Assembly (NCBI GenBank): GCA_051362555.1
Contig: CM120642.1
Location: forward strand, 12,834,001-12,898,000
Direction: 5' to 3'
Source: Lingula anatina
Taxonomy: Eukaryota; Animalia; Brachiopoda
Length of the DNA: 64,000 bases
A program made the position numbers and the translations under genes. Under the pieces are notes generated by a model. It made no database searches, was not told where the DNA came from, and saw only the letters and a program-made list of their open reading frames with translations. Positions 43,301-46,300 of the stretch are shown here, one piece after another (positions within the stretch are counted from its first letter, which is position 1; every line of letters begins with the position of its first letter).

Positions 43301-46300
43301 AAAACAGACCAAATTCTAAATATTTGTAATTGTTATGTCATTTAAAACAATTGTTGTTAAACAAAAATTTGGTTAACCCATTGTATGTTTGCTACTTTTG
43401 GTTAGATTGGAATTGAAAGAATTGAAACTGAACTGAAACTAAATTGGTCTGAAGATCACAAATACTTCACATCCATATCCTGACCTCAATGGTCCAGTTA
43501 CAATATCCCTGCACCTGATTTTTAAATCAACCTCCCAGTTAAACTTCCCTGAGCTACATCTGTAAAGCCTAGGTCCCAACTACGTTTTGGACGCACGTTT
43601 TTTTAGGTTCCTTGCATCCGGCTAGGACGTAGCTAGATCGCAGGGAAGGAATCAAGCAGCTGTTGATCATGACGAAAAGTTTGTAAGTGCTGTTTGCATC
43701 CTTCAAAAGTCGCACGATGGAAGTGCTCCTCACGCACGAACTCTCACGTTTTCCCCATTTTTTGGGCTGTAGACCACACGTAACAGCTTGTACGTTCGGT
43801 TGGGACCTAGGCTTAACAGGCCAGATGCATGCCACCTTCTTCATTTCCAAATCTCCATATGTGATGTACATAGGAATTAGAATGAGGAATTAGAAAACAG
43901 CAGCATTGGTTTCAAGATTATGCCACCTATTACAAATGTGAAGGGAAAGGGCTATTTAGATGGGTCTATGAGCATTTGTGACTAGTTCCAAACAACCATC
44001 ACTGAATCAGATAGTCACAGGTCCAATAAGCATAGCAGACACATATGGAGATTATAAGATGTAAAAATTGGCAAAATGAAGAAGTGGTCACTCATGCAAT
44101 CTGTAGTTCAGGGTCAGTTTAAACCCTTCACACCACACAACTGACCACACCCCCTCACGCAGACTGACCCTCTCATAATCTTCCGCATCTGTGGGGCAGT
44201 AAGGGTTTTGATGATGATCTGTGGGGTGGAGAAGCTTCCAGGAGTACTACAAAGAAATGAATAACAAAAGCAATATAAAAATACAGTACAAATAAGTTTG
44301 TGGGTGATGAACAGCTATAACTGCTGCCATGACTACACATTGAGTTACACTCTGAACATGGTGAAGATCTCCCCATTGGCTGGAAGTTGGACCACAAAAA
44401 TTATCAAACTAAATATTTTGGAATTGTTAAAATGTGCTTTGACAGCAAACACGAGGGGCAAATTTTAGATAAAATACACCTACTCCAATAACCACTGTAT
44501 GTTTTTTAAGAACTTGTAGAATATTCATCAATTTCTCAAAAATAATTCCCAGAGTCTGCACCTCATCCACCAAGTGGGAGATCTTCACATGTACAAGTGT
44601 ACAACATGTAGGTAGCAAGCATCATACTACAGTGGGCTCAGGGAGGGGTGAGCGATATTGGCCCCCTCCTTTTCTTACCCTCTCGTACTCCTCCGCGTCC
44701 TGTGGAACATGCGGGTTGGTGCGCTGGTCTACCGGGTGGAGAAGTTTCCAGGAATACTATAAATATTTCACAAGTTAACAACAAACAACGCAGGAATTCA
44801 CATAATGGATGTCCTCCCACATTAAATGAAATCCCGGCTTTGGGGATCCATTTTGCCTGCTGTGACATACAGATTCAACTCAATTTCCCTTGTCATACTT
44901 GATACAAAAATGAGAAATTTACATGAAAGTGCTTGTAAAATAATAATACTTAACTATATTTAACTTGACTATCTTTTGCAAACTGACGAGACTGTACAAA
45001 AGTTGAGAGCAATATATCAAGCTGTAAGAGTGTTGTCAAGGAAATATTTTACAATCACTTGATACATTTCTAGCAAACACTATTTTACAACTGATATTGT
45101 AACCTTTACTCATATCAAAGCACATGCTTCATATCAGAGCAACTGCTTAAATAATTATGTTCACCTATGGCACTTCACTTTGTCAAAAAAAAAAATCATT
45201 AGTTATATCAATGATAGTAGTACCTAATCTGAAAAATATATACCAAGTATTAAGTCATCACCATGTTACAAAATTAATGTTTTTACATTTTATTGTAATT
45301 ATAAATAAACAGTATAGAGCCGACTGCTCTATGTCAATACAAAGTATTCTTTTATAAAAATTTGAAACATTATCTTACAGTGAGGCTTCTGTTTATAACA
45401 TATGAGATAAAATAACATGAAAAGCCTATCATTTATTACCAGCTCCATGACTTGTACAGTCCATCCTGAGAGTAGCTGCAGTCCTCTCAGTGCCAGCTCA
45501 CATAGTTCTTTGTTCTCTCTGTCTGTTCTGGGGTTCTCTCTCTGAGTGGTGGTGATCTGAGGACATAGGTAGAACAAGATTGTATGAAGGGGGTGTGGAT
45601 GGAAGTGAAGGGGGGGTATGCCATAATAAATAATATTAGTCTTGAAATATTGTAGTATAGTAGCCATTTCTTCTAGACCACTTTAATGAAGAAGAATACA
45701 ATTTCCCTAATAGGTAGAATAAAGAGGAAGATTAGGGTGTATATCAGATGCAAGTGTCAATTGCAATGATTGTGCGATCAATGAGATACTATTATGATAT
45801 GAACTTAGAAGAACATTTAACTATGCATAATACTAGTTACACACACACACACACACACACACACACACACACACACACACACACACACACACACACACAC
45901 ACACACACACACACACACACCTCGTTGCTATGTTTGGCCAGCTGACTGATATATCTGACATGGTCATCTCTGATAGCCTCTAGACTCCCCAGTAGGTTGG
46001 ACTGAGAGCTGACCGCACTGGACATTGCCATAGGCCACTTGGTTGCGTCAAAGGTCGGGCTCTGCTTAATGTAACTGAACGGAGCAATCTGCATGTCTCC
46101 AAACAGAGGGACCATTTCTAGTTGCTAAATATGATAAAACAAGATAGAAAGATAATTCAACAGAAATTGCTTTGGTGACATAAAACAACAAGATCGCATA
46201 GAACTGCAGTAGTACATATTACCTGAGACTTCCACTCAAGAACTCCTTTGAAAGAATGTACTGCATAAAACATTTCCTTATGTACAATTGTTTAAATGCA

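What the first reader, a model, noticed from the sequence alone, without database searches (positions are those of the whole stretch)
44169..44756. Mutually exclusive exon pair in CYFIP at a Rac1 A-site loop
Seen: two 78-nt phase-0 exons 432 nt apart, both with intact splice sites: [26 protein letters not shown] and [26 protein letters not shown]. The ends are conserved, the loop has diverged, and there are synonymous differences, which suggests an old duplication with both copies under selection. By exon counting this matches human CYFIP1 ~412-437. E434 is among the residues whose mutation was reported to weaken Rac1 binding at the A site, and that position is E in 9a and D in 9b. Inference: splicing tunes Rac sensitivity of the WRC.
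Basis: partly seen in the sequence, partly recalled or inferred. Interest (0 to 1): 0.78.

Follow-up and report, generated by a model that had tools for sequence, protein, structure and literature searches.

The report
Swappable exon pair in brachiopod CYFIP
The CYFIP gene of the lamp shell Lingula, which encodes part of the machine that starts actin branching, has two versions of one short exon and RNA reads show either version spliced in, in proportions that differ between samples; the swap changes a surface loop beside the described Rac1 contact surface and likely alters a side contact rather than Rac1 binding itself.

Summary
The exon pair is real and used. The gene is Lingula anatina CYFIP. 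RefSeq's automated isoforms already contain both exons. Junction reads join exon 8 to 9b (103 reads, 7 of 7 runs) or to 9a (13 reads, 3 runs of one study); no 9a-9b joint was listed (floor 3 reads). Use differs by study (17:13 against 86:0 or 1). Both copies are under purifying selection (pS 0.79, pN 0.21). The Rac link is weaker than proposed: the described A-site interface is residues 91-108 and 176-215; the swapped loop (418-432) tolerated insertion of a whole Rac1; E434K was tested only with F626A; single-copy orthologs also carry D, A or S there. The odder change is loss of Cys428 in 9a (Cys in 148 of 150 peptides). A long intron hairpin (z -4.1) may enforce exclusion. No other animal showed a second exon 9, but mussels, pond snails and amphioxus have isoform pairs swapping exons 4 or 5, which do encode the A site. 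Known kind of splicing, new gene; no paper found.

The parts
25145..58585 (-). CYFIP (Sra-1) gene of Lingula anatina, coding span
   Evidence: tblastn of RefSeq isoforms X4 and X1 on the window maps the coding exons; exon 10 is 100% identical to XP_013390578.1; Pfam PF07159 + PF05994
45440..45556 (-). coding exon 8 (common upstream exon; donor at 45439)
   Evidence: sequence; junction reads from 45440 to both 9a and 9b
44679..44756 (-). exon 9a, 78 nt, minor and derived copy; Val in place of the conserved Cys428; weaker pyrimidine tract (0.56)
   Evidence: 13 junction reads in X7, X8, X9 and 6 reads running on into exon 10 in X8; RefSeq X2 and X6
44247..44678 (-). intron between 9a and 9b, 432 nt, folds more stably than its shuffles
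   Evidence: -121.1 kcal/mol, z -4.09, 0 of 100 shuffles; 3 of 49 other intron windows of the gene are as stable
44642..44669 (-). predicted small hairpin just after the 9a donor; its loop holds a branch-point-like motif with A at 44649, 30 nt from the donor
   Evidence: pair probability 0.97-0.98; motif scan; predicted only
44566..44621 (-). 5' arm of the predicted long intron stem
   Evidence: core helices at pair probability 0.88-1.0, also with flanking exons included
44322..44384 (-). 3' arm of the predicted long intron stem, ending about 75 nt before the 9b acceptor
   Evidence: AG-free zone before 9b is 66 nt
44169..44246 (-). exon 9b, 78 nt, major and ancestral-like copy; Asp at human 434; pyrimidine tract 0.80
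   Evidence: 103 junction reads over 7 runs; RefSeq X1, X3, X4, X5; 137 of 148 orthologous peptides are closer to 9b, 3 to 9a, 8 tie
41189..41403 (-). coding exon 10 (common downstream exon; human 438 onward)
   Evidence: PDB 3p8c_A 438-507; joints and loose ends

Best explanation
The Lingula CYFIP gene carries two tandem copies of coding exon 9 and its RNAs splice in one or the other, in proportions that differ between samples; the swap rewrites a surface loop beside, but outside, the described Rac1 contact surface, so it likely gives the WAVE complex a tissue- or stage-specific side contact rather than a changed Rac1 grip. Shown: both exons, both upstream junctions, both downstream joins, sample-dependent use, selection on both copies. 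Inferred: the duplication arose in the lineage leading to Lingula; 9b kept the ancestral loop and is the default (stronger pyrimidine tract); 9a diverged, lost Cys428 and is switched on in some cells. The constant ends of the exon ([14 protein letters not shown]) are structural (Ser413 ties the Rac-binding domain to the rest of the protein) and stay the same in both forms. Because both exons are 78 nt, double inclusion would stay in frame and nonsense-mediated decay cannot police it; exclusion is predicted to be enforced by the intervening intron, whose long stem would pull the 9a donor close to the 9b branch point, or would deliver a branch point lying only 30 nt from the donor to the 9b acceptor (about 40% likely on its own).
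For: Junctions: exon 8->9b X1 38, X4 9, X5 10, X7 6, X8 5, X9 6, X2 29; exon 8->9a X7 2, X8 9, X9 2, X2 0, zero depth on 9a in X1 and X5. Study P3 17:13 against P1+P2 86:0, Fisher p 2e-9 by reads, 8e-7 by distinct starts (X4 may hide one unlisted 9a read). RefSeq X1/X2 and X5/X6 differ only in these 8 residues. pS 0.79 vs pN 0.205, p about 1e-5; ends pN 0.03, loop pN 0.45; flanking introns no longer alike. Ding 2022 a non-conserved surface loop, inserted Rac1 there and saw no disturbance of local structure, and lists the interface as 91-108 and 176-215. Gln312-Ser413 bond (PMC7543656). Cys428 in 148 of 150 distinct peptides. Intron fold z -4.09; steric threshold of about 50 nt and the Dscam exon 17 precedent as cited in PMC7969005.
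Against: Tissue and stage of the runs are hidden, so the difference between studies could be population or cryptic species rather than regulation; within P3 the runs do not differ significantly (p 0.06-0.10). No partner of the loop is known and none was tested; its tolerance of a 200-residue insertion also fits no function at all. Exclusivity rests on few 9a reads and a 3-read floor. 3 of 49 control intron windows fold as stably as the hairpin, and its strand asymmetry is no greater than theirs, so it may be a decayed mobile element; donor-to-branch-point path length is 13-26 steps at pair probability 0.5 but 55-70 at 0.8. No brachiopod or phoronid relative was available to test conservation.
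Confidence: 0.5

Rival explanations
1. One reading: the swap tunes how strongly Rac1 binds or activates the WAVE complex at the A site, through E434D or through the loop touching the rim of the bound Rac1.
For: E434K/F626A lowered Rac1 binding (as reported in PMC5614565). The loop is within linker reach of A-site Rac1. E is kept in 142 of 150 peptides. Small changes in A-site sensitivity matter in cells (Y108H). Variable residues of such exon pairs tend to lie near functional sites (abstract of 10.1101/292813).
Against: E434 was never tested alone in the texts seen; F626 sits in an inter-domain junction, which could explain the double mutant. The interface named in the cryo-EM text excludes 412-437. 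E to D is conservative; the major isoform carries it; orthologs carry D, A or S. A Rac1 inserted into the loop left activation intact.
Confidence: 0.2
2. The two loops are functionally equivalent. After duplication the splicing of the two copies was split between cell types, so both are kept intact only because each is the one used somewhere; the loop differences are drift in a tolerant loop.
For: The loop varies freely between species and accepted a large insertion. Selection is strong on the exon ends (pN 0.03) and much weaker in the loop (pN 0.45).
Against: 9a has replaced a cysteine kept in 148 of 150 peptides and is further from orthologs than 9b (mean 17.4 vs 19.7 identities of 26), which is more than drift between species usually gives at this site. 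Asn425, Pro429 and Asp421 are kept in both copies.
Confidence: 0.25
3. Exon 9a is a pseudo-exon, an allelic variant or an assembly duplicate.
For: 9a is absent from junctions in four of seven runs.
Against: Spliced on both sides in reads; present in an independent assembly's RefSeq isoforms with one allelic change, T424A, that the P3 reads also carry; saturated synonymous divergence with constrained ends.
Confidence: 0.02

Closest known systems
Mutually exclusive exons from tandem exon duplication (e.g. PKM 9/10, OGDH 4a/4b)
   Same: Two homologous internal exons of equal length and phase, one used at a time, conserved ends, variable surface residues (abstract of 10.1101/292813; listing of PMC9741552).
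   Different: Not found described for CYFIP in the searches run; appears limited to the Lingula lineage.
Drosophila Dscam exons 17.1/17.2 and vertebrate OGDH 4a/4b exclusion mechanisms
   Same: A short effective distance between donor and branch point; OGDH branch points lie 25-41 nt from the donor, and structure plus distant branch point was implicated for Dscam 17 (passages of PMC7969005). Here a branch-point-like motif lies at 30 nt and a long stem spans most of the intron.
   Different: Here everything is predicted: no branch point mapped, no covariation; the AG-free zone is only 66 nt in the linear sequence. The Dscam paper itself was not held.
Human CYFIP1/Sra1 in the WAVE regulatory complex (PDB 3P8C, 7USC-7USE)
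   Same: Full-length ortholog; A-site residues N176, N183, R190, F194 are kept in Lingula on constitutive exons.
   Different: No second exon-9 version among the vertebrate records retrieved; vertebrates have two paralogs, CYFIP1 and CYFIP2 (established knowledge).
Block-swap CYFIP isoforms of Mytilus, Physella/Biomphalaria, Branchiostoma and Clavelina (public protein records)
   Same: Same-gene isoforms identical except within one exon-sized block.
   Different: Other exons: 4 (Lingula 131-191) in four Mytilus species and two pond snails, 5 (192-266) in amphioxus records, 12 in Clavelina. Exons 4 and 5 encode the 176-215 interface. Seen only as protein records; DNA and reads not checked.

Membership tests
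Mutually exclusive homologous exons | Tandem homologous exons, same length, phase and reading frame, intact splice sites | tested here: met
Mutually exclusive homologous exons | Each exon joined to the common upstream and downstream exon in RNA | tested here: met
   9b both sides; 9a upstream joint in 3 runs, downstream as 6 loose ends with exon-10 letters in X8
Mutually exclusive homologous exons | No joint between the two copies and no skipping of both | tested here: inconclusive
   none listed in 7 runs (double inclusion) and 4 runs with exon 10 in the stretch (skipping), but the floor is 3 reads and only 13 reads enter 9a
Mutually exclusive homologous exons | Both copies under purifying selection | tested here: met
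   pS 0.79 vs pN 0.205; ends pN 0.03 vs pS 0.62
Mutually exclusive homologous exons | Tissue- or stage-regulated choice | tested here: inconclusive
   differs between studies, p < 1e-6, but sample identities are coded
Mutually exclusive homologous exons | Both isoforms translated | not testable with these tools
   needs proteomics or ribosome profiling
CYFIP/Sra-1 | PF07159 followed by PF05994; full-length match to CYFIP1 | tested here: met
Rac1 A-site interface of CYFIP1 | Residues within the interface given by the cryo-EM study (91-108, 176-215) | tested here: not met
   exon 9 is 412-437; interface from PMC9481577 section 9
Rac1 A-site interface of CYFIP1 | Atomic contact of 418-437 with Rac1 in PDB 7USE | not testable with these tools
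Structure-assisted steric exclusion (Dscam 17 type) | Stable stem in the intervening intron | tested here: met
   z -4.09; core helices 0.88-1.0
Structure-assisted steric exclusion (Dscam 17 type) | Stem conserved with compensatory changes | not testable with these tools
   no related genome held; no locus with two copies among 78
Structure-assisted steric exclusion (Dscam 17 type) | Effective donor-to-branch-point distance under about 50 nt | tested here: inconclusive
   30 nt if the motif at 44649 is used; 13-70 steps for the proximal candidates depending on the outer helices; branch point not mapped

The most novel reading that the evidence does not exclude
Invertebrates have repeatedly and independently made two kinds of WAVE complex from one CYFIP gene by duplicating exons in and around the Rac1 A site (exon 4 separately in mussels and pond snails, exon 5 in amphioxus, exon 9 and the first exon in Lingula, exon 12 in a tunicate), a splicing counterpart of the vertebrate CYFIP1/CYFIP2 split; these natural variants would be ready-made tools for finding how Rac sensitivity is tuned, and the Lingula pair marks a regulatory loop with a conserved cysteine that no study seen here has assigned a role.
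Probability: 0.3. Interest if true: 0.68.

Novelty: new member of a known kind. Interest (0 to 1): 0.42.

Why it matters
CYFIP is the subunit through which Rac switches on the WAVE complex, and small changes in its sensitivity cause disease in people (PMC9481577). A regulated exon swap points to a surface that evolution found worth varying. For Lingula that surface is a loop that structural biologists have treated as a neutral tethering point; a difference between the two isoforms would give it a function. On its own the Lingula pair is an ordinary kind of splicing in one lineage, already present in automated annotation.

Tried and rejected
No whole genome is held. No indexed RNA holder was listed; only runs with the same species label, of which 7 of 9 were laid (X3, X6 not). 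A second exon-9 copy in other animals: none in 78 of 78 metagenome loci; 41 have the same discrete 78-nt exon, and 16 of these (9 distinct peptides) include both neighbouring exons, so the whole interval was seen; none among 292 proteins of 500 aa or more compared pairwise, apart from Lingula. Two apparent hits were rejected: Nematostella P0186 repeats a whole region with identical exon-9 copies (read as an assembly artefact) and Saccostrea cucullata P0284 simply lacks the exon in its model. Lymnaea P0244/P0315 differ throughout and are paralogs. No brachiopod or phoronid other than Lingula was named among the hits, so the age of the pair is open. Distant linear branch point with a long AG-free zone: not supported, zone is 66 nt. 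Rfam: one match at E 0.43, far under its threshold. The stem arms are not repeated elsewhere in the window, which neither shows nor excludes a mobile element. Strand asymmetry of folding did not separate the hairpin from controls. Chen 2010 and Yue 2013 were not held; their content is taken from citing papers. The text supplements of PMC9481577 (3 files) hold none of the residue names searched; figures, which may mark E434, could not be seen. Earlier findings of the scan: none.

Full report
Observation. They share 18 of 26 residues; 9 codons differ silently and 8 change a residue. No third copy is in the window. The surrounding gene is CYFIP: exon 10 matches human CYFIP1 438-507 and is 100% identical to a Lingula anatina RefSeq protein. 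Mapping the RefSeq isoforms on the window makes this coding exon 9, equal to human 412-437.

Annotation. Of six full-length RefSeq isoforms, X1, X3, X4 and X5 carry 9b and X2 and X6 carry 9a; X1/X2 and X5/X6 differ only in these 8 residues. The pair is thus already in automated annotation. RefSeq's 9a has Ala where the window has Thr (human 424), an allele that the reads of study P3 also show.

Expression. Seven of nine listed raw-read runs were laid, 6 to 30% of each run. Exon 8 to 9b: X1 38, X2 29 (study P1); X4 9, X5 10 (P2); X7 6, X8 5, X9 6 (P3). Exon 8 to 9a: X7 2, X8 9, X9 2; X2 0 at 88% likeness; X1 and X5 have no depth on 9a; X4 has intron-like cover with one read at 44730, so at most one. 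9b joins exon 10 in 4 of 4 runs; 9a runs on into exon-10 letters in 6 reads of X8. No 9a-9b joint and no exon 8-10 joint was listed; the floor is 3 reads from 2 starts. Counts are mates, not fragments. P3 against P1+P2 gives p 2e-9 by reads and 8e-7 by distinct starts. Tissues are unknown, P2 was laid only at 95% likeness, and runs within P3 do not differ significantly, so regulation is likely but not shown.

Evolution. Synonymous sites are saturated (pS 0.79) against pN 0.205; the ends have pN 0.03 and the loop 0.45; the flanking introns are no more alike than shuffles. The duplication is old and both copies are constrained. Among 150 distinct exon-9 peptides from 390 of 438 proteins and 78 of 78 loci, 137 of the 148 non-Lingula ones are closer to 9b, 3 to 9a: 9a is the derived copy. 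Cys428 is kept in 148 of 150; 9a is one of two exceptions. Position 434 is E in 142, A in 4, D in 2 (9b and Gigantopelta), S in 2. No other animal showed a second exon 9, though no other brachiopod or phoronid was named among the hits.

The Rac1 claim. Chen 2017 (PMC5614565, passages) says E434K was tested as the pair E434K/F626A; the original 2010 paper was not held. Ding 2022 (PMC9481577; abstract, sections 6, 9, 10, 11, term searches and 3 text supplements; figures not seen) gives the Sra1 side of the A site as 91-108 and 176-215, does not name E434, and describes 418-432 as a non-conserved surface loop into which a whole Rac1 was inserted to tether it to the A site, without local disturbance. 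Seven of the eight residues that differ between 9a and 9b fall in that loop; the eighth is 434. Kaplan 2020 (PMC7543656, two passages) places F626 in an inter-domain junction and notes a Gln312-Ser413 bond; Ser413 is kept in both copies. Pfam's Rac1-binding domain covers 62-277 only. So the loop is near the A site but outside the interface as written, and E434D is a weak lever. My best reading (0.5) is that the swap changes a side contact on this face; equivalence of the two loops (0.25) and direct tuning of Rac binding (0.2) remain open.

How exclusion may work. Double inclusion would be in frame, so decay cannot remove it (inference). The intervening intron folds at z -4.09, 0 of 100 shuffles, with a stem pairing 44621-44566 to 44384-44322 whose core helices have probability 0.88-1.0 also in exon context. 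A branch-point-like motif lies 30 nt after the 9a donor in the loop of a small hairpin; other candidates lie 61, 46 and 29 nt before the 9b acceptor. PMC7969005 (passages) gives a steric threshold near 50 nt and cites structure plus distant branch points for Dscam exon 17. Against this: 3 of 49 control windows are as stable, strand asymmetry is like controls, and the effective distance depends on weak outer helices. About 40% likely; a decayed mobile element is the rival.

Beyond the finding. Pairwise comparison of 292 aligned proteins of 500 aa or more found other same-gene isoforms that differ in one exon-sized block: exon 4 in Mytilus galloprovincialis, trossulus, edulis and californianus (10 changes) and in Physella acuta and Biomphalaria glabrata (17 and 19), exon 5 in Branchiostoma records (35-37), exon 12 in Clavelina (27; two annotation sources). 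The two Mytilus versions share Mytilus-specific residues, so the mussel and snail duplications look independent (by inspection, no tree built). Exons 4 and 5 encode the 176-215 interface; the snail swap changes the C179 position (A/P or A/A) and K189 position (R/K) and keeps N176, N183, S186 and R190. These are protein records only.

Novelty. Mutually exclusive duplicated exons are a known kind (abstract of 10.1101/292813; listings). Searches for CYFIP with mutually exclusive exon, exon duplication, Lingula, or amphioxus and mollusc names (listings only, plus one passage of PMC8805411) showed no paper on such exons in CYFIP; most subscription papers are outside the library. Verdict: real, expressed, new member of a known kind; the Rac mechanism as proposed is unlikely; interest 0.42.

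Noticed in passing
window 54094-53168 (-): Alternative first coding exon of CYFIP: 311-residue proline-rich N-terminus ending in a diverged copy (41-43% identity) of the normal first exon 58585-58376; in RefSeq X1-X3. It lacks the normal N-terminal helix region. Decapod, stomatopod and isopod CYFIPs also have long proline-rich N-terminal isoforms, but built as extensions of an intact first exon. Expression not tested here.
   Followed up: partly
window 47282-47247 (-): Directly after the exon 4 donor lies a degenerate tandem copy of the last 12 codons of exon 4 (the A-site stretch, human 178-189), out of frame; score 44 against a maximum of 20 in 1000 shuffles, 6 silent and 6 replacing differences. 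No in-frame splice route found; perhaps a relic of a partial exon 4 duplication.
   Followed up: partly
window 34512-34492 (-): 21-nt micro-exon adding 7 residues in RefSeq X1, X2, X4; a UGC lies shortly before its acceptor, as recalled for neural micro-exons (from memory, not tested).
   Followed up: partly
proteins P0203/P0207, P0245/P0321, P0320/P0319, P0136/P0141, P0220/P0221: CYFIP isoform pairs swapping exon 4 (mussels, pond snails), exon 5 (amphioxus) or exon 12 (Clavelina); exons 4 and 5 encode the Rac1 A-site interface.
   Followed up: partly
window 43560-43819: Element with 21-nt inverted ends in the intron after 9b; reads from other loci map to it with loose ends, so probably a repeated mobile element.
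   Followed up: no
window about 2000-22000: Long tandem satellite array of roughly 140-nt units with higher-order structure.
   Followed up: no
proteins P0314, P0317, P0324, P0325; loci L060, L073, L074, L077, L078: Land snails and some unnamed animals have lost E434 (A or S) in single-copy exon 9; L078 also lacks Cys428.
   Followed up: no
L034:2621-2892: Partial tandem copy of the start of CYFIP exon 11 in an unnamed animal locus.
   Followed up: no
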